Positions 11,101 to 47,344 of a DNA stretch of 63,628 nucleotides are shown here, one piece after another. This DNA comes from a virus (lineage: Duplodnaviria; Caudoviricetes). The stretch is from positions 1-63,628 of IMG/VR virus record IMGVR_UViG_3300048554_000002, one strand, 5' to 3'. Each line of letters opens with the position of its first letter. The first letter of the stretch is position 1. The position numbers and the translations under genes were made by a program. The notes beneath the pieces were generated by a model. The model had not been told where the DNA came from and did not search any database. It was given only the letters and a program-made list of their open reading frames with translations.

Positions 11101-12440
11101 ACTTCTGAAGTTCCAGTATTCGTGTCGTTAGTTAAATGAATTTTTGCGGGGTCATCTTTTATTGTCAAAGTGCCTGACGGACTTGTTGTCCCCACGCCCA
11201 CCCGATCATTCGCGCTATCGACGTACAGCGTGTCGGTGTCTACGGTTAAGTCGCCAGCAATCGTAACATCATCAGGCAAACCAACGGTGAGCGTCTGACC
11301 AGAGGCAGATGTCTCAATCTCGTTAGTCGTACCCGCAATCGTAAAGGTCTGACTATCCAGATCAACGGCACCCGTGCCGCTATCACCGCCAAAGTCCAAA
11401 TCTTGCGCGGTTACTTGGCTATCCACATACGCCTTGATCGACTGTTGTGTGGCCAGACCCGCAGGATCGTCGGAGGACATGTTGTCCTCATCCAAGATCG
11501 AAGTGACCGTAACTGTGCCCGCGATATTAAGGCTTGTGTTGGCTGTCGCTGTAGTAACCGTAGCCGCTGCAGGGGTCGCCCCACCAATAACTACGCCATC
11601 CGCTGTGCCGCCATTAATGTCGGCTGTTGTAAGAACTGCAGACGCTACTGTGACTACACCTGTACTATCCGCAATAGAACCTGCCGCTGTGCCATCGTTC
11701 GCTTTGATGTTTGTTACTTCTAAGTTCGTTGCGTTGACGCCATCATCCTTGAGTAACACGCTGTCAATCGTAACACCGGAGCCTGCTGTAGTCTCGTCGA
11801 TGGTGTTTGTAGTAATCTTCTGGCCATTATCGACGATGATGTCGTTGGCACCGGACGTATTACCGTTAGCAAGAACCTCGGATAACTCATTATTAGCGCC
11901 CACCTGCGCATCCACATAGGCTTTAATTGACTGCTGTGTAGCCAAAGATGTAGCACTGTCAGAGGCCATATTATCCTCGTCAAGGACCGCTGTAACTGTT
12001 GTGCTAGTACCCAACTGCAGAGATGTGGTATGTGTGAGCGCCTCAACGACATTTGTGCCATCACAGAACAAAAACGTAGTGCGTCCATCAGGGACAAGGA
12101 TGCCCGTGCCACCAGAAGTTTTTACTGTAATGTTCTGCCCAGCCGCGTTTTTCACGATATAGATTTTAGACGCCGTAGGACATACAACTGTACCTGCGCC
12201 AGACAACGCTGTACCCGTATCGGTAAGCTCCAACATAGCACAACGTGATTCTGAAGTTGTACCGTTGGCGCTAGTGAGTGTGTGTGCGTTTGTGGTCCAC
12301 GTATCAATAACCGCACGTCCCGCGATAGCCTGTTCAACCATCGACGTGATATTGTCGTTAACCACGTCACCCCATGTGCCGCTAAGTTCACCCTGAACTG
12401 GCAGAGCAAGTTTAAGTATCGGTGAGTATTGCGTTGTCAT
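8178..12440 (-). CDS. Long tail fibre / receptor-binding protein
   Basis: 1420 aa, G/T/S/A-rich. Repeats LATQQSIKAYVD (x2), DG.PG..DMPGR..F.TT.DGA....ERMRI (x4) and VGVGT/VLIG beta-motifs. Confidence 0.88.
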   Translation of the reverse strand: MTTQYSPILKLALPVQGELSGTWGDVVNDNITSMVEQAIAGRAVIDTWTTNAHTLTSANGTTSESRCAMLELTDTGTALSGAGTVVCPTASKIYIVKNAAGQNITVKTSGGTGILVPDGRTTFLFCDGTNVVEALTHTTSLQLGTSTTVTAVLDEDNMASDSATSLATQQSIKAYVDAQVGANNELSEVLANGNTSGANDIIVDNGQKITTNTIDETTAGSGVTIDSVLLKDDGVNATNLEVTNIKANDGTAAGSIADSTGVVTVASAVLTTADINGGTADGVVIGGATPAAATVTTATANTSLNIAGTVTVTSILDEDNMSSDDPAGLATQQSIKAYVDSQVTAQDLDFGGDSGTGAVDLDSQTFTIAGTTNEIETSASGQTLTVGLPDDVTIAGDLTVDTDTLYVDSANDRVGVGTTSPSGTLTIKDDPAKIHLTNDTNTGTSEVTFRTTAGSNRGFMAYDFDNDDMSFRTGGSGTAMIIDSAQRVLIGKTSATPVGSSASAKLQVSQNKTILNTVFDAYGNNAGGATIAFGSSRSATVGTPGTVVQDNDNIGAIRFAADDGTDLQTQAALIIADVDGTPGANDMPGRLEFHTTADGASSATERMRITNGGFVGIGGARDADTPLHIYSASTGAIIPLIKLQANVSSTDSSEGASIDFVVSGDNSAIGSRIIGTRAASGANMDLRFHTARDNFAMLIDTGRRLLIGTDAIRGIVNNGGSSLLQIESTAGKSASQITMNADSVAGPVAFFAKTRGTTVGSSAIVQDDDYFGSLQFAGADGLDTNTSGAMIAAQVDGTPGANDMPGRLTFWTTADGASSSTERMRITSSGLIGLGSQSPTQEVSVGGNIDLQSSSGGNSTMRRIAWRNTNSSGYEVANIQGYTGANIYEGQIAFQTKDSGGSMVEAMRINSSQRVILGHENSDASYAAMRLQVVGESDYRNSALSISRFISSSAGPSFWMTKSRGASAGTYGIVSDDDQVASFLFTAADGTDLSSTAARWDVEIDGTPGVNDMPGRIVFRTTADGAATPTERMRISSGGQVNIGDNMVVYSNPNLQIRSQDNTAIGAADLWSALNKPGIDVRNSSNTQFSYAGINFFGGTSSNSYAGINMVQTTANSKGALTFWTGGNGEGAPYAYERMRIDSAGRVLIGHTSSINMATDQAAVQVVGTGSNDANSTIARFSGSAYGPYRMFVKSRATSKGGSSVVYNNDYLGRVAFYGDDGTDQGAEGANIQARVDGSPSGDDMPGRLEFYTTSDGADTASERMRITNTGLVSVGTQSNFGTATGTVVQTGSSGSLANALIMAHKDVTAGSGNTGEAFCELQLKLGIQGKLRFHAEVDVWFYINTGPDRGSAKYIFSGYFNGGSSALDRYTVYNTDPDNIGIPVAYTSGSQKGIKVQFTNTNASNGLFGQMKVNVTWNP

Positions 12441-32310: not shown

Positions 32311-32528
32311 TAGAATATTTTACTATCCTCATCCTAACTTACACGGTGGGTGAGTACGATCTGCAATCTAGGATCGTGTTTCCGAGTGCCAAGTTATGTG
32401 GTGATGCGCTACCTGCGTATTATGAACCAATCTATGCGTTTGACAAAAACAGCATGGCTCAATGCGAACGGACAGATGAAATGTCCAAAACAATAAGGCC
32501 AAAACTAAGGCCACAAACTGGAGAATGA
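32307..32528 (+). CDS. Small hypothetical protein with hydrophobic N-terminus
   Basis: 73 aa, RBS GGAG, TTG start, two Cys. Confidence 0.6.
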   Translation: MIEYFTILILTYTVGEYDLQSRIVFPSAKLCGDALPAYYEPIYAFDKNSMAQCERTDEMSKTIRPKLRPQTGE

Positions 32529-33313: not shown

Positions 33314-34327
33314 ATGGCCTTATATTGGCAAAACAGACACCTAATGTCCTTTGATAAAGTGGCGGCAACATACGATGCTATCAAACCGCTGCGTGGTAAA
33401 CTCAGTGATGCTAACGTACGTCCTCTTGGTGACCGTGCGCGTAAGTGGGAGCGGATCAAAAAGATCAACAACAACTGCTACGTGCTGACAGACGGGTATC
33501 ACACTGGTGATGATGTGTTTAAGAGTTGGGGTTACAACCATAAAACAGGTAAACCAACCGAAGCAGAAATGATTAACCTTGCACCAATCGTGTGGCGTAG
33601 ACACAGAGATGGTACGACGACAATCAAGGTGCGTAACGGTACAGGTCAAGGTGCACACAACGGTCGGTATAGTTTCTTAGACAGACACCTGCCAAACGGT
33701 ATGCGGTTCATCGTTCGCAACGGCAAACACTTTATATCGTTGGGTCACGGCACCACTTACAAGGAATATTATCTTGCTAAGAGTAACACGTTAGCTGCGT
33801 GGGCATTGCCTGACGATGCACAGAGAAATCAGTGGACCAAAGACTTCACATCCCGTGATGATGGTGTGGCGCTGACGTTTCGTGTTGCCGATGACAAAAT
33901 AACTTTTGTGGACGGTGGTAAGGGGTTGCCTGTTGCGCCCAAGGTTCGGGTAGATAAGAAAGCCAAAGCCAAGATGAAGGATGCTATTGCTGAGTTCCGT
34001 GAGTGGGCGTTCACCATGTATCCTTTGTTACCTACCAACGACTACGAGTATAACAATCGTATCCGTGATGAAATACGCAACGTGATAGGTGGCTACGGGT
34101 GGCATATAACTGGTAGTTTTAGTGACGATCCAGAGTTTACGCGTACGGTAATAAATGACCCTGACCACGGGTTACGTCTGCACCTGATGTACGGGATCAT
34201 GGGTGAGACTGACTACCATCTGCGTCACACGTTTGACAGTGATGCGGATCATGTGAAGACTGTCAAATCGCAATTCAACCGTAAAATCAACAAAGTCTGT
34301 GGTTTTACAAAACAAGTGAGAGGATAA
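33314..34327 (+). CDS. Hypothetical protein
   Basis: Start at MALYWQ after RBS GGAG, about 337 aa. Confidence 0.75.
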   Translation: MALYWQNRHLMSFDKVAATYDAIKPLRGKLSDANVRPLGDRARKWERIKKINNNCYVLTDGYHTGDDVFKSWGYNHKTGKPTEAEMINLAPIVWRRHRDGTTTIKVRNGTGQGAHNGRYSFLDRHLPNGMRFIVRNGKHFISLGHGTTYKEYYLAKSNTLAAWALPDDAQRNQWTKDFTSRDDGVALTFRVADDKITFVDGGKGLPVAPKVRVDKKAKAKMKDAIAEFREWAFTMYPLLPTNDYEYNNRIRDEIRNVIGGYGWHITGSFSDDPEFTRTVINDPDHGLRLHLMYGIMGETDYHLRHTFDSDADHVKTVKSQFNRKINKVCGFTKQVRG

Positions 34328-35874: not shown

Positions 35875-36050
35875 CCCAAGCTGTGAGTGGGTTGCGGGTT
35901 TATGGATATTGTCCCGCGAAAACCGCAGCAGTACGAGCAACGCCCTCCATGATATTACTCATTGCGTTTGTGATCGTACCGAAGAAACCGCGTCATGGTT
36001 AGTCCCTGTGGCTTCTAACATGGGGCACCACTTTAACAATGGAGGAACCT

Positions 36051-36239
36051 ATGGGTGACGAGCAGTTAACTACGTTTCAAGAAGCCAACCTAAAATGGTT
36101 GAAGCGGCAGGTTGATAACTTACAGGATGAACAGCACCGTGCAGATGCGCGGCCTCGCGTACAACAGGAACTTTGGGCTGCGCGTGAGGAGCTTGATAAC
36201 TACGTCAAGACGCTGCGTGACCACGGTATAAAAATATGA
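36051..36239 (+). CDS. Small coiled-coil protein
   Basis: Start at MGDEQ after RBS GGAGGA. Confidence 0.65.
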   Translation: MGDEQLTTFQEANLKWLKRQVDNLQDEQHRADARPRVQQELWAAREELDNYVKTLRDHGIKI

Positions 36240-36550
36240 ACGAACAGGAACGTGTAAAATACGAGGAGTTGTACCGACAAAAGTGGGAGCAGCAAATTAA
36301 AAAAGATAAGAAAGATAATCCTCGTTTAGTAACAAGTAACAGGTACATAAACAACGCCATGCACAAAGAAAATGGTTCAAAGGGTGGTAGACCCAGAAAG
36401 GAGGAGAACAAACTAAAACTGACAAAGGACGCTGAAGTGTTGAACCGCATGTTGCAGCGTAAGATGACGTTAGGAGACGCCGCAGAAATAATGGGCATAA
36501 GCCGAAAATGGGCGTCAACGTTAAAAAATAAATATGATTTGCCAAGATAG
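36236..36550 (+). CDS. HTH DNA-binding protein
   Basis: 104 aa with NGSKGGRP and C-terminal TLGDAAEIMGISRKWAS. Confidence 0.7.
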   Translation: MNEQERVKYEELYRQKWEQQIKKDKKDNPRLVTSNRYINNAMHKENGSKGGRPRKEENKLKLTKDAEVLNRMLQRKMTLGDAAEIMGISRKWASTLKNKYDLPR

Positions 36551-36554
36551 GAGA

Positions 36555-37322
36555 ATGGCTATGGTTGCGAAGAAAACAGCAGGGGCACCCCTCGAAATAC
36601 ATACTGTCAAACAGGGGCGTATCAAACTGCGGATGGTTGGTCAGACACCGTTGTACTTTAATAGTATGGGCGCAAAAGCGTGGCGTGATCTGTTAGTGGG
36701 TGCAGGTAAAAAGACTGCGGCTGAAAAGAAAGAACTAAAACATAACCCCGAAAAAGAATTTAGGGAAAGTGTTTACACTAAGAAAACAGGAGACACGCTG
36801 TTGTGCTTCCCTGCGGCAGGGGTAAAGGGTGCTATGGCTACGGCTGCACTAGAAACGGCAGGGATCACTAAGACAAGTGTGCAGCGGCTAATATTTCTGC
36901 CCGAAAGCCATGTGCAGATTTGGGGCAAGCCGTATCTGAAGATGGACATTGTTCGGTCTGCGGATATGAATAAGACCCCCGATGTTCGTACCCGTGCGTA
37001 CCTACCCAACTGGTGCGCAGAGGTGGATATAAAGTTTGTTACACCAACGCTCAGTGCCATGGCTATCTCGTCATTGTTAATGAACGCAGGGATAATCGTG
37101 GGGCTTGGCGACTTCAGACAGGAGAAAGGTCGTGGCTCTTATGGCACGTTCTCTGTAACAGGTTCTGAGGATATGGGGGAACAACAGGCTATTTGGGATG
37201 ATATCACGCAAGAAGCGCGTGAGGTCCAAGAGATGGCATTAGAGTATCCCGAATGCGCTGATGAACAGACAGCGGAGCTTATGCAGTTCCTACAAGAAGA
37301 ACGGTTGCGTCGAGCAGCTTAA
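36555..37322 (+). CDS. Stand-alone Cas7/RAMP-superfamily-like RNA-binding protein
   Basis: RAMP-ordered motifs: first strand IKLRMVGQTPL, FPAAGVKGAMATAA (cf. IPGSSLKGALR), thumb region, W.AEVDIKF, and a C-terminal Gly-rich loop GLGDFRQEKGRGSYGTF. Confidence 0.75.
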   Translation: MAMVAKKTAGAPLEIHTVKQGRIKLRMVGQTPLYFNSMGAKAWRDLLVGAGKKTAAEKKELKHNPEKEFRESVYTKKTGDTLLCFPAAGVKGAMATAALETAGITKTSVQRLIFLPESHVQIWGKPYLKMDIVRSADMNKTPDVRTRAYLPNWCAEVDIKFVTPTLSAMAISSLLMNAGIIVGLGDFRQEKGRGSYGTFSVTGSEDMGEQQAIWDDITQEAREVQEMALEYPECADEQTAELMQFLQEERLRRAA

Positions 37323-37329
37323 ACGAAGA

Positions 37330-37349
37330 GGGGCGGTTAACGCCGCCCT
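37330..37349 (+). other. Hairpin at the 5' edge of the repeat array
   Basis: GGGGCGGT-TAAC-GCCGCCCT with no U-tract. Confidence 0.7.
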
Positions 37350-37362
37350 AATTCACGGATAA

Positions 37363-37700
37363 GGCGGTTATGGAGTGTTGGGGTTTGGTCCGTTGCGGTC
37401 AGTCGGGGCGGTCGAGGTGAGATGAGGTCTGATATGTTAAGGTCGGGCGGGGTTTGGTATGGCGGTCAAGGCGGTTGAGGCGCGGTGAGTTGGGTTAAGG
37501 CACGGACGGGCGTGGTACGGCAAGGCGGTCAAGGTGTGTTGTGTTCGGGTATGGCGAGCTACGGTGAGATATGGTCGGGTGAGGCGGTCGTGGTGCGTTC
37601 CGATGTGGCGCGTTCCGATGTGGCGCGGCCCGTTTGGGCGGTCTAGGTTGGGTGTGGCGCAGCGTGGTCCGATGTGGCGCGGTGTGGCACGACGAGACAG
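37363..37700 (+). ncRNA. Array of six putative guide-RNA units: GGCGGTY + (NN-GNY)n with strict 5-nt periodicity
   Basis: GGCGGTY at 37363, 37407, 37461, 37470, 37524, 37583 and 37637. Of 55 intervening triplets, 54 start with G, 53 end in Y and 32 are GGY. The NN positions vary freely. Confidence 0.85.
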
Positions 37701-37716
37701 CTAAACTAATGAGAAG

Positions 37717-37741
37717 GTGGTGGGCTGTAGTGGCCCACTAC
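37717..37741 (+). other. Hairpin at the 3' edge of the array
   Basis: GTGGTGGGC-N7-GCCCACTAC. Confidence 0.6.
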
Positions 37742-37770
37742 ATAAAAATAAATTTACTGGAGAACTAAAT

Positions 37771-38274
37771 ATGGCTAATTTTTCTAAGAAAACAAAGCAG
37801 CGTATCATTGACGATTACCTGCATAAAACAGGCGCGAACATGTTTGTGCCCTCAGAGTTTGTCGATTGGTTAGCAGGGCAACCAGAACATGAGGCTTACC
37901 CTGCGTTCTACGAGATGGATGATGCAGAAGCAGCGCGTCAATTCCGTATTCAAATGGCACGTCAGATGGCATCTGGTTTGCGTATCGTTGCGAAGACAGA
38001 AGAAGTCGAAAGCTCGGTGGTTTCTATCAAGGTGGCAGAATACCCTGCGTATATATCCCCTGTGTCTAAAAGGCGTGATGGTGGTGGGTATGAACCGTTT
38101 GATCCTAGTGATGAAACTGCGCAATCTGAGTTACGTAGGCAGGCAGGCACAAGTCTAGCTGCGTGGTTGGAGCGGTTCCGCGGCTGCGCTGAACATATAG
38201 GGGTGGATGTCACTCCATTGGAAGATATCGTGCGTGTATTACGTGACGAAAAAGACGAAGCGGTGGAGGCATAA
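37771..38274 (+). CDS. Hypothetical protein, probable partner of the RAMP-like protein and array
   Basis: Start at MANFSKK after RBS GGAG, with motif HEAYPAFYEMDDAEAARQFRIQMARQ. Confidence 0.75.
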   Translation: MANFSKKTKQRIIDDYLHKTGANMFVPSEFVDWLAGQPEHEAYPAFYEMDDAEAARQFRIQMARQMASGLRIVAKTEEVESSVVSIKVAEYPAYISPVSKRRDGGGYEPFDPSDETAQSELRRQAGTSLAAWLERFRGCAEHIGVDVTPLEDIVRVLRDEKDEAVEA

Positions 38275-38715
38275 ATGGCTAAGAAAGGATCGCCGTACGC
38301 GGATAAGATATGGGCGTACAAGATAAAACATCCTACAGCGAAAGCTAGGGAAATCGCGGACGCGACTAACACATCTTATGGGTACGTCTATAAACTTCTA
38401 AAGAAGATCGGCACACCAGACGAAGTGTTTGAAAAGGAAGCGCGTAGGGTCACGCGTGGGCAGGTGCTAGATACCGCCAAAGAATATGTGACCAAAGATC
38501 GTGCGGCTGACCATGGCAACATGGAAGATAACTTCAGCACCATAGGCAAGTATTGGTCGGTGCATCTAGGTGTGGATGTAAGTGCCACAGATGTAGCTGT
38601 GATGATGACGTTGTTGAAAGCTGCACGTATAAAGTCGAACCCGTCACATCCAGACAACTGGGTAGACGCATGTGGTTACATGGCATGTGGTGGCGAGATA
38701 GTGGGTAAGGTCTGA
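38275..38715 (+). CDS. HTH plus DUF6378-like protein
   Basis: N-terminal AREIADATNTSYGYV, then R..DHG...NF..I...W...DNWVD.CGY. Confidence 0.75.
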   Translation: MAKKGSPYADKIWAYKIKHPTAKAREIADATNTSYGYVYKLLKKIGTPDEVFEKEARRVTRGQVLDTAKEYVTKDRAADHGNMEDNFSTIGKYWSVHLGVDVSATDVAVMMTLLKAARIKSNPSHPDNWVDACGYMACGGEIVGKV

Positions 38716-40544
38716 TGGACCTAATCACGTTAGATTTTGAAACCTATTACGACAGGGATTATTCTCTGTCTAAATTAACAACAGAAGCCTACGTCCGTGA
38801 TCCTCGTTTTGAGGTGATCGGCGTGGCTGTCAAAGTAAATAATGGAGAAACGGAGTGGGCTAGTGGAACGCATGAACAACTTAAACGATACCTTGGAGCC
38901 TTCCACTGGGAAGAAGCTATGGTACTTTGCCATAATACTATGTTTGATGGTGCCATTCTTAATTGGCATTTTGATATTCGTCCTCGGATGTATACCGATA
39001 CTTTGTGTATCGCCCGTGCTTTACATGGGACTGAAGCTCGCGCAAGTCTCGCGGCGTTATCTGAAAGGTACAATCTCGGCACTAAGGGGACAGAGGTCGT
39101 ACGTGCCCTCGGGAAAAGGCGTGGAGATTTTGGACCCGTAGATTTAGCGGAGTACGGCGACTACTGTATCAATGACGTGGACCTCACCTATAAACTTTTT
39201 AGTAGGATGGCCCGACAGTTCCCCAAGCAGGAGCTACGTTTGATAGACGCCACCCTGCGTATGTTTACCGAACCTACTTTGGACTTAGACCGTGGCTTGT
39301 TGCAGTCGCACCTTCAAGATGTGAAAGATCGCAAGGCCAAACTGCTGACTGATGCAGGGGTAGAAGATAAGAAAGACCTTATGTCCAACCCGAAGTTCGC
39401 GGAGTTGTTGAAAGGGTTTGGGGTCAAGCCCCCGATGAAGACGAGCCTGACCACAGGCAAAGAAACATTCGCGTTTGCCAAGAACGACGAAGCGTTCAAA
39501 CAGTTGTTAGAACATGAGGATGATCGTGTGCAGTCGCTAGTAGCGGCGCGTCTTGGTAGTAAGTCTACGCTAGAAGAAACACGGACCCAAAGGTTTATCG
39601 ACATCTCAAACCGTGGGCTTCTGCCTGTCCCTGTAAGATATTATGCTGCGCATACTGGACGGTGGGGTGGCGACGATAAGATCAATCTGCAAAACCTACC
39701 GAGCCGTGGGCCAAACGGTAAGAAGCTAAAGCAAAGCCTTATCGCACCCGAAGGACATTCGTTGATAGACTGCGACAGTTCACAGATTGAAGCGCGTGTA
39801 TTGGCGTGGCTTGCAGGGCAAGATGATCTGACCCAACAGTTCGCGGATGGCGAGGACGTATACAAGTACATGGCGTCCAGTATCTATAACGTGCCAGTAG
39901 ACGGGGTGAGCAAAGACCAGAGATTTGTGGGTAAGACTACAATTCTTGGCGCAGGTTACGGTATGGGTGCCGTTAAGTTCCAAGCACAGCTACAGGGCAT
40001 GGGTGTCTACATAGACTTAGAAGAAGCACGGCGCATCATACAAGTATACCGCGATGCCAACGGCGCAATCAGTTCCTTGTGGCGAGCCGCGAACAACATG
40101 GTGCAGTATATGCAGCGTGGGGATACCCTAAACTTTGGGCGCGAGGGCGTGTTAAAGGTGGACGCATCTACCAGCTCAATAATCTTACCTTCTGGCCTAC
40201 CTATGTTTTATCATGGGTTAGCCGCAGAGCAGGGCGAACGTGGCCCCGAGTACACATACAAAACGCGCAGAGGCGCAAAGCGTATATACGGTGGTAAGGT
40301 GGTGGAGAACGTGTGCCAAGCTATTGCACGTTGTATCATAGGACATCAAATGTTACTTATTGCCAAGAGATACAAAGTTGTGCTAACTGTACATGACAGT
40401 ATTGTGGCCTGTGTAACCGACGAGGAGTTGGATGAAGCGCAAGCATATGTCGAAGAATGTATGAGCCAAACACCTAAGTGGGCTGATGGATTACCGATCA
40501 CATGTGAAAGCGGAACAGGCAAATCATATGGAGAATGTGAGTGA
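38715..40544 (+). CDS. polA: DNA polymerase family A with 3'-5' exonuclease
   Basis: Exonuclease motifs LDFET, HNTMFD and YCINDV. TGRW, motif A DSSQIEARV, motif B R..GKTTILGAGYG, motif C VHDS. Confidence 0.95.
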   Translation: MDLITLDFETYYDRDYSLSKLTTEAYVRDPRFEVIGVAVKVNNGETEWASGTHEQLKRYLGAFHWEEAMVLCHNTMFDGAILNWHFDIRPRMYTDTLCIARALHGTEARASLAALSERYNLGTKGTEVVRALGKRRGDFGPVDLAEYGDYCINDVDLTYKLFSRMARQFPKQELRLIDATLRMFTEPTLDLDRGLLQSHLQDVKDRKAKLLTDAGVEDKKDLMSNPKFAELLKGFGVKPPMKTSLTTGKETFAFAKNDEAFKQLLEHEDDRVQSLVAARLGSKSTLEETRTQRFIDISNRGLLPVPVRYYAAHTGRWGGDDKINLQNLPSRGPNGKKLKQSLIAPEGHSLIDCDSSQIEARVLAWLAGQDDLTQQFADGEDVYKYMASSIYNVPVDGVSKDQRFVGKTTILGAGYGMGAVKFQAQLQGMGVYIDLEEARRIIQVYRDANGAISSLWRAANNMVQYMQRGDTLNFGREGVLKVDASTSSIILPSGLPMFYHGLAAEQGERGPEYTYKTRRGAKRIYGGKVVENVCQAIARCIIGHQMLLIAKRYKVVLTVHDSIVACVTDEELDEAQAYVEECMSQTPKWADGLPITCESGTGKSYGECE

Positions 40545-44542: not shown

Positions 44543-47344
44543 ATGAAAACAAAACGATTTTTGGAGCTAATTCTAGCGCACGAAGGGGAATATTGCGTTT
44601 GGGCCAACAGGAACGGGCGGGTACAGCAAACCTTCCACGCATCTGTAGATGACCTGTTACAGGCAGGACGCGACTTAGATAGCAACGGGTGGAACGCCTT
44701 CTTTGCGATGGGAACGTTTTTTGACAGCAGTTCCCGTGAAGCGACCAACGTGCAGTGGATGAAGTCTTTCTACTTAGATTTAGACTGTGGCCCCGACAAA
44801 GAGTTTCCATCCCAAGCAGTAGCCATAGACGCGCTACGCACCTTCTGTGAAAATAACGGCTTGCCCACACCCACGCTTGTGAACTCAGGACGTGGCGTAC
44901 ACGTATACTGGATATTGTCCGAGCCTGTGTGTAGGGAAGATTGGTGGCCTGTAGCCGAACGTCTAAAGATGTTATGTAGGGATCAAGGTTTTGAGGCCGA
45001 CCCCTCGCGTACTTCTGACGCTGCTAGTATTCTGCGCATACCAAACACACGTAACCACAAGTACGAGGAACCACTACCTGTAGAATTTTATGGGATAGAA
45101 GACTTCGATACTGTGGACTTTGACACGTTTGCCACGCTGTTAGGCGATGATCCGATACCAGTACCCAAGAAACGCGAGACATCGGCGGTCAGCGCTTTCA
45201 AAGACGCGATGTACCAAAACTATAAAGGTAGCTTCAAGCGTCTGTTGCTGAAGACCAAGAACGGTACGGGCTGCAACCAGATCAAACACATAATAAAACA
45301 TCAAGGTAGCGTGTCGCACGACCTATGGCGAGCGGGGTTATCAATAGCCAACGTGTGCGAGGACGGGGCAGAAGCGGCTCACATAATGTCTGCGCAGCAC
45401 GAAGATTACAGTGTGCAGGGCACACTAAAGAAGATGGAAGATACAGGCGGTCCACACTTCTGTAGCACGATAGAACGGCTGAACCCTGACGGGTGCGAGG
45501 GTTGTCCAAACAAGGGTAAGATCACAACCCCTGCGGTGCTTACAAAAGAAATCAAAGAAGCTACGCCAGAAGACAATATTATAGAGGAAATAGATGGGGA
45601 TAGTACGAAGCAGATCACAATACCTGCACTGCCAAGACCATATTTTAGGGGGCAGAACGGGGGCGTGTACCTACGCACTGTGAACTCAAATGATGAACCC
45701 GAAGAAATTTGTGTGTACCACAACGACTTCTATGTAACGCGCAGGCTGCACGATGTTGAGCTTGGGGAAGTCATAGCTTTTGCTTTACACCTACCAAGGG
45801 ATGGGGTTCGAGAGTTTGTAGTCCCGCTATCAGCTATTACATCAAGGGAAGAGTTCCGCAAACACATGTCCATGAAGGGCATAACCACATTCGGGAAGGA
45901 CGTAGACAAGCTAATGGCCTACACAGCAGCATGGATAAACGAGTTACAACAAACAACTACCGCTAGTGAAGCGCACCAACAGTTCGGTTGGGTTGATGAA
46001 GACACGATGGATGCGTTTGTGTTAGGTGACCAACTGATTACGGCAGCGGGTACAGAATACAACCCACCGTCAAGTAAGACTGCGGGGTTGATAGACGCGT
46101 TTAGGCCAAAAGGTTCTAGGGAGCGTAGTAGGGAGCTACTCGACTTTTACGCACAAGAAGGCATGGAGCTACAACAGTTCACTATATGCGGGGCTTTCGG
46201 CACTATCCTCATGCCCTTGACTGGGTTGTATAGTCTAGGTGTGCATCTGTTTGGTGAGACAGGTGGTGGTAAGACAACGGCTATGTACACAAACACGTCC
46301 ATATGGGGGGAGCCACGTCCACTGACGTTGACCAAGAAAGATACAGAAAACTCTAGGATGAACCGCGCCGAGGTCATGCACAATCTGGGGTTAAACACGG
46401 ATGAGATGACCAACATCCACGGCAAGCAAGCGTCCGACTACGCGTACCAATTATCAGAAGGAACGCAGAAGAACCGGATGGCAGGTGGCGGCAACTACGA
46501 ACGTGTTAGGGGTAAGCCGTGGCGTCTGATAGCTTTCTCCACAGGTAACATTAGTATTTACGCACAGATGGCTATGGCCAAGGGCGACACCAAAGCAGAG
46601 ATGCAGCGGCTGCTCGAATTACGTGTGGATGAAATACCCAAAGTAGCTGTTGACCCTGCGGTATCCGCTAGTCTGTACAAAGACGTACAAGCCAACTACG
46701 GCCACTTTGGTCCCGAGTACGTGCAATACGTCATTCAAAACAAAGACACTATCAAGGCTGACTACGAAACCATAAAAGCCAGATTAGACAAAGCCGCAGG
46801 GTTGGATCAGAAGAACCGTTTCTGGTCTGGTGGGTGTTCCGCTATATTAGTCGGAGCCTTGGCCGCAAAACGAGCAGGCATAATAGATTATGATATGAAG
46901 AAGCTGTTTAAGTGGGTAGTGGGGCAACTTATACGGGTAAAAGCGTTTGTAGATGATAGCACCGCGTCTGTCCAAACACTGGTCACAGAATTTACTACCG
47001 AACATTGGGGTAGCATACTGAAGATCAAAAGCACCGACACTGCACAAGAAGCGGAAGGTATTACGCCCATGGTTATACCCGACCAGAACCCAAGAGGCTC
47101 TTTGGTTGCGCGATACGAGACAGATACAAACATGCTATATATTGTACCCAAACCGTTCAAGAAGTGGCTTGGCGAACAGAAGCTAGACTACACTAGCACG
47201 GTAGAGGGGATGCAGCGCGAGATGGGGGCTAAACGCAAACAGATGCGGTTGTCCAAAGGCACTAACTTTAACCTGCCTCCGATACGCGCCATTGCAGTAG
47301 AGTTAAAGGGTTTTACCGTTGTACCAAAAGCCACTGAGGATTGA
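44543..47344 (+). CDS. Primase-helicase (AEP/RepB-like primase + DUF927 + P-loop helicase)
   Basis: YLDLD, NSGRGVHVYW, LRIP.T.N, a Cys cluster (C...CEGC), QQFGW and Walker A GETGGGKT. Confidence 0.85.
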   Translation: MKTKRFLELILAHEGEYCVWANRNGRVQQTFHASVDDLLQAGRDLDSNGWNAFFAMGTFFDSSSREATNVQWMKSFYLDLDCGPDKEFPSQAVAIDALRTFCENNGLPTPTLVNSGRGVHVYWILSEPVCREDWWPVAERLKMLCRDQGFEADPSRTSDAASILRIPNTRNHKYEEPLPVEFYGIEDFDTVDFDTFATLLGDDPIPVPKKRETSAVSAFKDAMYQNYKGSFKRLLLKTKNGTGCNQIKHIIKHQGSVSHDLWRAGLSIANVCEDGAEAAHIMSAQHEDYSVQGTLKKMEDTGGPHFCSTIERLNPDGCEGCPNKGKITTPAVLTKEIKEATPEDNIIEEIDGDSTKQITIPALPRPYFRGQNGGVYLRTVNSNDEPEEICVYHNDFYVTRRLHDVELGEVIAFALHLPRDGVREFVVPLSAITSREEFRKHMSMKGITTFGKDVDKLMAYTAAWINELQQTTTASEAHQQFGWVDEDTMDAFVLGDQLITAAGTEYNPPSSKTAGLIDAFRPKGSRERSRELLDFYAQEGMELQQFTICGAFGTILMPLTGLYSLGVHLFGETGGGKTTAMYTNTSIWGEPRPLTLTKKDTENSRMNRAEVMHNLGLNTDEMTNIHGKQASDYAYQLSEGTQKNRMAGGGNYERVRGKPWRLIAFSTGNISIYAQMAMAKGDTKAEMQRLLELRVDEIPKVAVDPAVSASLYKDVQANYGHFGPEYVQYVIQNKDTIKADYETIKARLDKAAGLDQKNRFWSGGCSAILVGALAAKRAGIIDYDMKKLFKWVVGQLIRVKAFVDDSTASVQTLVTEFTTEHWGSILKIKSTDTAQEAEGITPMVIPDQNPRGSLVARYETDTNMLYIVPKPFKKWLGEQKLDYTSTVEGMQREMGAKRKQMRLSKGTNFNLPPIRAIAVELKGFTVVPKATED

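What the first reader, a model, noticed from the sequence alone, without database searches (positions are those of the whole stretch)
37583..37700. The NN code reads as codons with the wobble base skipped: collagen-like and tail-protein-like targets
Inference from decoding each NN as NN-x. The reverse complement of U5 gives CAn GGn GCn ACn GGn GCn ACn GGn GCn ACn = [QH]-G-A-T-G-A-T-G-A-T, a typical collagen-like Gly-X-Y fibre repeat. The reverse complement of U6 gives S-V-T-A-T-G-T-A-T-[HQ]-Y, resembling a virion beta-protein. Read forward, U2 = [DE][DE][DE]L[IM][KN]RG[FL][IM], U3 = [DE]A[DE]G[KN]TRVT[KN], U4 = [KN]VVR[IM][DE]T[DE][IM]R[DE] and U1 = [IM]VG[FL]PA[HQ]G. No collagen repeat was seen in this phage's own proteins. 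A guide ignoring every third base would resist synonymous escape and hit families of competitor phages.
Basis: inference. Interest (0 to 1): 0.9.

Follow-up and report, generated by a model that had tools for sequence, protein, structure and literature searches.

The report
Phage VIPR guide-RNA array, decoded
This marine phage carries a VIPR system, a CRISPR-like silencer described in 2026 whose guide RNAs read only the first two letters of each codon, and four of its six guides spell conserved motifs of rival phages' genes.

Summary
It matches a mechanism published in 2026 as VIPR (bioRxiv 10.64898/2026.04.26.720920).

- **Array:** 37361-37698 holds 62 in-register pentamers NN-G-[G/T/A]-[T/C]. 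Seven 4-nt GGTC/GGTT joints cut it into guide units of 8-11 pentamers.
- **Protein:** the upstream 255-aa protein folds as a Cas7/Csm3-type RAMP. It aligns with the phage SUSP1 Vipr over the loop that reads GGY.
- **Targets at a 1-nt gap:**
  - U4 matches a small-terminase gene, 22 of 22 bases.
  - U6 matches 64 viral contigs, all in frame as SVTATGTATHY in a ~123-aa head protein, as 34 synonymous variants.
  - U5 matches collagen-like QGATGATGAT repeats.
  - U2 matches EDDLIKRGFI in a ~105-aa protein.
  - U3 found nothing. U1 was not scanned.
- **Controls:** U6 at gap 2 gave 0 hits. Among 480 family guides, 14 scored 90% or better at gap 1, against 0, 3 and 0 at gaps 0, 2 and 3. In all 14 the skipped base sits on codon position 3.

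This is a new member of a known kind. The scan has noted VIPR before on other DNA: 513 notes in at least 390 genomes.

The parts
36555..37322 (+). vipr gene: a stand-alone RAMP (Cas7/Csm3-like) protein of 255 aa. The ORF is open from 36534, but most homologues start at the later Met.
   Evidence: AlphaFold2 pLDDT 95.2. Foldseek gave 73 PDB chains at E<=0.001, and the rows listed are subunits of CRISPR effector complexes, Csm3/Cas7 first. VIA Z is 9-10.9. hhalign against the SUSP1 Vipr gave probability 97.2%. No Pfam match and only PHROG 4652 of unknown function.
37329..37348 (+). GC-rich hairpin between vipr and the array
   Evidence: Read directly from the sequence. The terminator scan lists it only for the minus strand, and no T-run follows it on the plus strand.
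37361..37698 (+). vrRNA array: 62 NN-GGY pentamers with seven GGTY joints
37370..37409 (+). guide unit U1, 8 NN
   Evidence: Not scanned against the collections. Shared with arrays L002, L005, L036, L040 and L123.
37414..37463 (+). guide unit U2, 10 NN
   Evidence: 7 exact gap-1 matches in metagenome contigs. Five lie in frame as EDDLIKRG[FL]I in a 64-108-aa ORF, and a sixth has the same 29-mer as one of them. No match in viral contigs.
37477..37526 (+). guide unit U3, 10 NN
   Evidence: No exact gap-1 match in viral or metagenome contigs.
37531..37585 (+). guide unit U4, 11 NN
   Evidence: One exact 22-of-22 gap-1 match, L148 12505-12536, in frame as KVVRMETDIRE in a small-terminase gene.
37590..37639 (+). 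guide unit U5, 10 NN, a low-complexity 3x(GT GC CC) pattern
   Evidence: In the 80 loci kept, 100 of 104 matches are antisense and in frame as [QH]GATGATGAT in ORFs of median 488 aa.
37644..37698 (+). guide unit U6, 11 NN
   Evidence: 64 exact gap-1 matches in viral contigs. All 64 are antisense and in frame as SVTATGTATHY at about residue 71 of a ~123-aa head protein (PHROG 240). They comprise 34 distinct 32-mers.
37726..37742 (+). 8-bp perfect hairpin between the array and the next gene
   Evidence: I3. It is not conserved across the family: in 21 of 23 relatives the array ends only 24-33 nt before the next start codon.
37771..38274 (+). candidate vap (accessory) gene, 167 aa
   Evidence: It follows the array in the related loci. 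No Pfam or PHROG family. The model has pLDDT 77.5 and no PDB fold match at E<=0.001.

Best explanation
This is a VIPR locus (Viral Interference Programmable Repeat): vipr (36555-37322), a tail-less 'staggered' array of about six vrRNA guides (37361-37698), and a candidate accessory gene (37771-38274).

The mechanism below comes from the SUSP1 preprints and is inferred here, not shown. One Vipr protomer binds each pentamer. It sequesters the G-G-Y bases and presents the two variable bases. These pair with double-stranded target DNA while every third target base is skipped, and binding blocks transcription.

Inferred: the array is transcribed with vipr, and units are delimited at the conserved GGC|GGTY joint, where two pentamer registers overlap by one G.
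For: Repeat grammar: units of 8-12 pentamers make up 510 of the 727 internal units in the family, with a mode of 10. The preprint reports 9-16 repeats per vrRNA.

Protein: pLDDT 95.2. Csm3/Cas7 chains, including 6ifn_E, which the preprint used as its own Cas7 query, are the top Foldseek hits. VIA Z is 9-10.9 over residues 17-205. hhalign of the 82-sequence family alignment against SUSP1 ALH47069 gave probability 97.2% and E 3e-11 over 52 columns. It puts R147, D186, F187 and R188 opposite SUSP1 R138, D177, W178 and R179, the residues the structure preprint says hold G2, G1, G2 and Y3.

My parser also finds the published SUSP1 arrays beside that gene.

Targets and controls: as set out in the summary.

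DNA rather than mRNA is the target. U4 and U2 have the sense of the coding strand and U5 and U6 the antisense; among the 14 family hits, 8 are sense and 6 antisense.

No self-targeting: the window's own guides score at shuffle level (75% or less) on its own genome, and the target proteins have no homologue in the window.

Guides are shared in a mosaic pattern among relatives, as spacers are.
Against: - Nothing here shows RNA processing, Vipr-RNA binding or silencing. Contigs from four RNA libraries cover parts of the array, but they cannot prove transcription.
- The hhalign match covers only 52 columns.
- U3 has no exact target, and U1 was not scanned.
- U5 is low complexity, and no gap control was run for it.
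- One U2 hit (L333) looks like chance.
- The published type II system has a conserved 3' pseudoknot tail. This array has none.
- I could not see the figures or supplements that define the seven types, the vap families or the staggered arrays.
- The 167-aa neighbour has no recognisable DNA-binding or nuclease fold.
- Codon phase is not universal in the family. Five relatives' guides match a tRNA-Arg gene of a target phage.
Confidence: 0.92

Rival explanations
1. The tract is an RNA that wraps a TRAP-like multimeric ring or a similar RNA-binding protein, with one G-G-Y triplet per subunit and about 10 per ring. It would act as a regulatory leader or a protein sponge, and the NN bases would be meaningless spacers.
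For: Period 5 with a conserved triplet and a 2-nt spacer, in units of about 10, resembles TRAP sites as I recall them. This was my first guess.
Against: The NN bases carry information. They spell exact in-frame matches to foreign phage genes at gap 1 only. The adjacent protein is a RAMP, not a ring-former.
Confidence: 0.02
2. The G-rich, strongly GC-skewed tract is an R-loop or primase-loading origin of replication. It lies just upstream of the polymerase, helicase and primase genes.
For: GC skew of 0.41. The position before the replication module. GGTC joints resemble primase recognition sites, a point I recall rather than tested.
Against: This does not explain the strict 5-nt register, the hypervariable NN, the mosaic exchange of units or the codon-phased matches to other phages.
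Confidence: 0.03
3. The locus is VIPR-derived, but in this tail-less array the whole transcript forms one continuous filament, or acts mainly as a decoy or regulator, rather than giving six separate DNA-silencing guides.
For: There is no 3' tail, ribozyme or nuclease gene in the locus. Per the preprint's text, the staggered type was not among the architectures it confirmed by sRNA-seq.
Against: Matches begin and end at unit borders. U4 matches 11 of 11 NN, and the next in-register dinucleotide, the GG of the joint, does not fit the target. Relatives exchange whole units.
Confidence: 0.1

Closest known systems
VIPR type II of Escherichia phage SUSP1 (Vipr + vrRNA + vap1). Sources: bioRxiv 10.64898/2026.04.26.720920 (results, discussion and about half of the methods read); 10.64898/2026.04.26.720927 (abstract and two result sections read); 10.64898/2026.10.15.759431 (abstract only).
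   Same: A stand-alone RAMP protein with D-aromatic-R in the G-loop, GGY/NN pentamer guides of about 10 repeats, the 1-nt skip rule, skipped bases on wobble positions, targets on both strands, targets in competing phages, no self-targeting, and a small adjacent accessory gene.
   Different: - The protein here is 255 aa against 195 aa, and it is alignable by profile only over 52 columns.
- The second G of the GGY triplet is relaxed: G 65%, T 28% family-wide.
- Guides abut one another through GGC|GGTY joints instead of each carrying a ~40-nt pseudoknot tail.
- The array lies between vipr and the accessory gene.
- The accessory protein has no recognisable fold.
- The hosts are uncultured marine phages.
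'Staggered vrRNA arrays' of the same preprint (fig. S18; only the legend was seen)
   Same: The legend says that neighbouring vrRNAs overlap by 1 nt, so that the end of one marks the start of the next. Here the pentamers GGC-GG and G-TY-NN share one G at every joint.
   Different: I could not see the figure or which VIPR type it belongs to.
Cas7/Csm3 backbone subunits of class 1 CRISPR effectors
   Same: The RAMP fold (Z 9-10.9) and periodic interruption of guide-target pairing.
   Different: No CRISPR repeats and no other cas gene next to it. The period is 5 nt with three guide bases hidden, not 6 nt with one base flipped (CRISPR periodicity as stated in the preprint).
TRAP binding sites in Bacillus trp leaders (recalled, not from any call)
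   Same: Conserved triplets with 2-nt spacers, about 10-11 per unit.
   Different: The spacers here encode targets, and the partner protein is a RAMP.

Membership tests
VIPR | Stand-alone RAMP protein (RRM core, G-loop, thumb) outside any CRISPR-cas locus | tested here: met
   Model pLDDT 95.2. Foldseek and VIA place CRISPR effector-complex chains, Csm3/Cas7 first, in all listed rows, with Z up to 10.9. The neighbouring genes are HTH, DUF6378, polymerase, exonuclease and helicase, not cas. The whole genome was not screened for cas genes.
VIPR | Homology to an experimentally studied Vipr, including the GGY-reading residues (SUSP1 R138, D177, W178, R179) | tested here: met
   hhalign of A1 against SUSP1 ALH47069 gave probability 97.2% and E 3e-11 over 52 columns. 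R147, D186, F187 and R188 align with those residues (their roles are described). R188 is invariant, and R147 and D186 are at least 90% conserved among 82 homologues.
VIPR | vrRNA: tandem pentamers with conserved GGY and hypervariable NN, about 9-16 per guide | tested here: met
   62 pentamers in units of 8-11. The family has 7608 pentamers, and G at position 3 in 96%.
VIPR | Targets follow the 1-nt skip rule | tested here: met
VIPR | Skipped base falls on the codon wobble position, and targets lie on either strand | tested here: met
   14 of 14, 64 of 64 and 100 of 104, with 8 sense and 6 antisense hits. Exception: a tRNA gene is targeted by relatives' guides.
VIPR | No self-targeting at 80% NN match or better | tested here: met
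   The best match of the window's own guides on its own genome is 15 of 20 or 15 of 22, equal to shuffles.
VIPR | vrRNA is expressed and co-purifies with Vipr, and the complex silences DNA targets | not testable with these tools
   The only evidence is RNA-library contigs over parts of the array in 4 runs from 4 studies, which may be DNA carry-over.
VIPR | Adjacent vap accessory gene of one of the six described families | tested here: inconclusive
   A conserved 167-aa gene follows the array, but it has no family or fold match. No vap sequence was compared; the paper's vap families are defined in data I could not open.
VIPR type II (SUSP1 clade) | Each vrRNA ends in a conserved ~40-nt tail with a pseudoknot | tested here: not met
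   Units abut through 4-nt joints. In 21 of 23 relatives the array ends 24-33 nt before the next gene. This locus is therefore not filed as type II.
CRISPR-Cas class 1 | CRISPR repeat-spacer array plus several cas genes | tested here: not met
   No repeat-spacer array appears in the locus, and the neighbouring genes are not cas.

The most novel reading that the evidence does not exclude
In this marine phage family, VIPR works from a tail-less, self-delimiting multi-guide transcript. The one-base register slip at GGC|GGTY, rather than a pseudoknot, a ribozyme or a nuclease, sets where one Vipr filament ends and the next begins. Arrays of up to about 24 units (194 pentamers) act as a broad-spectrum panel aimed at the most conserved peptide motifs of rival phages' virion and packaging genes. 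One guide covers generic collagen-like fibre repeats, and some relatives' guides are aimed at a phage tRNA gene.
Probability: 0.3. Interest if true: 0.6.

Novelty: new member of a known kind. Interest (0 to 1): 0.4.

Why it matters
The class and its code are in print, so the principle is not new. This locus adds four things.

- **A clear natural case.** One guide (U6) exactly covers 34 synonymous variants of one head-protein motif in 64 contigs. That is the predicted benefit of skipping the wobble base.
- **Reach.** VIPR is extended to an abundant family of uncultured marine phages: 1989 cluster representatives of the protein at E<=0.001.
- **An untested architecture.** It offers a tail-less staggered array that, by the preprint's text, has not been tested at the bench.
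- **Small programmable units.** If the joints alone delimit guides, this would be a very compact way to encode many guides, at about 54 nt each.

Tried and rejected
- **Early guesses.** Before finding the preprint I considered a TRAP-like ring-binding RNA, an R-loop origin, two-tier G-quadruplexes, Chi-like or primase sites, and pairing to tRNA CCA ends or the anti-Shine-Dalgarno sequence. All fail to explain why the NN bases match foreign genes at gap 1 only.
- **Rfam** found nothing for the array. A sub-threshold S15-leader match at 37713-37830 (23 bits against a cut-off of 39.5) was ignored.
- **Cultured relatives.** Megablast of 36000-39500 against cultured phages gave no match.
- **Family guides against this window** showed no gap-1 excess. 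The gap-3 hits are the array matching itself.
- **Scans with no exact match:** U3 in viral and metagenome contigs, U2 in viral contigs, and U4 and U6 in 596 Gb of genome contigs. The targeted phages were therefore not found as prophages, and no host could be named.
- **The 167-aa protein** had no PDB fold match at E<=0.001.
- **Promoters.** No sigma-70-like promoter was found in 37150-37850.
- **RNA-library contigs** leave parts of the array uncovered. That says nothing either way.
- **VIPR type** could not be assigned. The figures and supplementary data that define the types are not visible, and supplements are closed.
- **ORF heuristic.** The longest-ORF rule placed 6 of the 64 U6 hits in other frames. 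Forcing the frame showed the ~123-aa ORF is open in all 64, three of them cut by contig ends.
- **Not done:** a search allowing mismatches in the collections, a scan with U1, a gap control for U5, and a screen of the whole genome for cas genes.

Full report
**What is there.** The window is a complete 63,628-nt IMG/VR virus record. An intergenic tract lies between a 262-aa ORF (36534-37322) and a 167-aa ORF (37771-38274). It is G-rich, with GC skew of about 0.41. By coordinates it resolves into 62 pentamers, 37361-37698. G is at position 3 in 61 of 62. G, T or A is at position 4 (42, 11 and 8). A pyrimidine is at position 5 in 60 of 62. Positions 1-2 are free. Seven 4-nt joints (GGTC x5, GGTT x2) each shift the register by one base. 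They divide the tract into units of 1, 8, 10, 1, 10, 11, 10 and 11 pentamers. The finding's stretch, 37583-37700, holds units U5 and U6. Elsewhere in the window only 2 positions reach 9 of 10 G at period 5, against 36 inside the array.

**Conservation.** The two flanking proteins retrieved 146 related loci from IMG/VR. Of all 147 loci (L001 included), 134 show the array at the same place and on the same strand. The other 13 either start at or inside the downstream gene (10) or are cut by a contig end (3). A dynamic-programming parse gave 82 distinct arrays of 26-194 pentamers, 7608 in all. Position 3 is G in 96%, position 4 is G in 65% and T in 28%, and position 5 is T or C in 95%. Of 809 joints, 781 are 4 nt long, and 678 read GGTC or GGTT. 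Internal units peak at 10 pentamers, and 510 of 727 have 8-12. The joint consensus is R-W-GGC-GGT-Y, with C before the joint in 92%. Whole units are shared among relatives in different combinations. For example, L007 shares only U5 and U6, L090 shares only U4, and the distant L124, L126 and L128 share U6 at 95%.

**What it is.** My first reading was a TRAP-like protein-wrapping RNA or an R-loop origin. A full-text search then found a 2026 preprint describing VIPR systems (read). These comprise a stand-alone RAMP protein (Vipr) and vrRNAs made of 9-16 YNNGG repeats. The NN bases pair with double-stranded DNA while one target base is skipped, usually the wobble base, and natural targets are competing phages and satellites. 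A companion preprint gives the structures (abstract and two sections read). One protomer binds each repeat. G1 is read by D177, G2 by R138 and W178, and Y3 by R179.

**The protein.**
- An AlphaFold2 model from 82 diverse homologues has pLDDT 95.2.
- Foldseek finds 73 PDB chains at E<=0.001. Every row listed is a subunit of a CRISPR effector complex, Csm3/Cas7 first, and 6ifn_E is among them.
- VIA-align gives Z 9-10.9 over residues 17-205, and all 50 rows shown are CRISPR effector complexes.
- Phage phiSUSP1 has two minus-strand genes flanked by pentamer tracts that my parser recognises.
- hhalign of the family alignment against its 195-aa protein gives probability 97.2% and E 3e-11 over 52 columns. 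R147, D186, F187 and R188 lie opposite SUSP1 R138, D177, W178 and R179.
- In the 82-sequence alignment R188 is invariant, and R147 and D186 are at least 90% conserved.

Exact gap-1 patterns were scanned in the public collections.

| Guide | Collection | Result |
|---|---|---|
| U4 (22 fixed bases) | viral contigs | 1 match, in frame as KVVRMETDIRE in a 134-aa Terminase_4 / PHROG 5601 small-terminase gene beside a large-terminase gene |
| U6 (22 fixed bases) | viral contigs | 64 matches |
| U2 | viral contigs | 0 |
| U2 | metagenome contigs | 7 matches |
| U3 | viral and metagenome contigs | 0 |
| U4 and U6 | 596 Gb of genome contigs | 0 |
| U6 at gap 2 (control) | viral contigs | 0 |

- **U6.** With the frame fixed, all 64 matches lie antisense at about residue 71 of an open ~123-aa ORF and read SVTATGTATHY. 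The protein matches PHROG 240 'head protein'. It sits two genes after the major head protein gene in a 55.6-kb phage. The 64 sites are 34 different 32-mers, and all ten skipped positions vary.
- **U5.** In the 80 loci kept, 100 of 104 matches are antisense and in frame as [QH]GATGATGAT, in ORFs of median 488 aa.
- **U2.** Five matches lie in frame as EDDLIKRG[FL]I in a Cys-rich ORF of 64-108 aa next to primase genes. A sixth has the same 29-mer as one of them. The seventh looks like chance.
- **Chance rate.** The genome-contig zeros and the gap-2 zero also show how rare chance matches are.

**Family-wide control.** I ran 480 distinct guides of at least 8 NN from the 82 arrays against the 65 loci fetched with U4 and U6 (579 kb, both strands).

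| Gap | Guides matching at 90% or better | Shuffled dinucleotide order |
|---|---|---|
| 0 | 0 | 0 |
| 1 | 14 (6 exact) | 1 |
| 2 | 3 | 1 |
| 3 | 0 | 0 |

Six of the 14 are U4, U6 or their near-copies in relatives. These are not independent, because those loci were fetched with U4 and U6. The other eight are different guides hitting other sites: the large terminase twice, a 447-aa ORF, a 70-aa ORF, a 108-aa ORF present in five loci, and a 748-aa ORF. In all 14 the skipped base falls on codon position 3 of the longest covering ORF. Eight are sense and six antisense. Sense-strand guides cannot pair with the mRNA, which argues for DNA targeting.

Against four complete target-phage genomes, guides at 90% or better numbered 0, 6, 0 and 0 for gaps 0-3. 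There, five relatives' guides converge on a site that is not coding. It is the 5' part of a tRNA-Arg(TCT) gene, so the wobble phase is usual but not universal.

**Self and non-self.** The window's own guides score only 12-15 matched bases on its own genome, the same as shuffles. Family guides show no gap-1 excess against it. The target proteins have no homologue in it.

**How it differs from the studied system.**
- There is no conserved 3' tail. Units abut, and in 21 of 23 relatives the array ends 24-33 nt before the next gene. The hairpin at 37726-37742 is therefore not a family feature.
- The joint can be read as two pentamers, GGC-GG and G-TY-NN, sharing one G. This fits the legend of the preprint's 'staggered arrays' figure. 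The text says this architecture was not among those confirmed by sRNA-seq. The terminal GG is not part of pairing for U4, because the next in-register target dinucleotide does not fit.
- The 167-aa neighbour is conserved but has no family or fold match.
- Contigs from four RNA libraries of four studies cover parts of the array. They cannot show transcription or RNA ends.
- No sigma-70-like promoter lies in 37150-37850, so co-transcription with vipr is an inference.

**Verdict.** The locus is a VIPR system with a staggered, tail-less guide array in an abundant family of uncultured marine phages. Natural targets were identified for four of six guides. The kind and its code are already in print in three 2026 preprints. 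This scan has noted VIPR in at least 390 other genomes. I therefore file it as a new member of a known kind, of moderate interest.

Noticed in passing
L340 3666-3976 (Gordonia phage UmaThurman, NC_031249.1 about 33352-33662): The annotated CDS gp40 ('hypothetical protein') is a run of GGY-NN pentamers in several staggered registers. It lies directly after gp39, a 27%-identical homologue of the window's Vipr, and next to the integrase-repressor-excise cassette. It is probably a mis-annotated vrRNA array in a cultured temperate actinophage.
   Followed up: partly
L343 12377-12402 (G001:C1 about 32377-32402), within tRNA-Arg(TCT) 12324-12400 on the minus strand: Five different guides from relatives' arrays (L026 at 16 of 16; L049, L051, L053 and L059 at 16-17 of 18) match the 5' part of a tRNA gene in a 55.6-kb phage that U6 also targets. 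This is a non-coding VIPR target.
   Followed up: partly
L148 (12.7-kb viral contig): Guides from at least five different relatives hit this one contig at five further sites: the large terminase twice (one of these sites by two guides), a 447-aa ORF and a 70-aa ORF, in addition to the U4 site in the small-terminase gene. Many guides thus converge on one rival phage.
   Followed up: partly
window 38275-38715: The gene after the candidate vap encodes a DUF6378 protein (Pfam E 1e-31) with a weak N-terminal HTH match. It precedes the DNA polymerase gene.
   Followed up: no
window 46223-46232: This is the only other place in the window with G in 9 of 10 period-5 steps. It lies inside the primase/helicase gene and is most likely chance.
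   Followed up: no
L008-L012 and L082, L091-L093, about 2.3 kb upstream of the array: A short (50-nt) period-5 G run appears in several close relatives well upstream of vipr. It could be a solo guide or chance.
   Followed up: no
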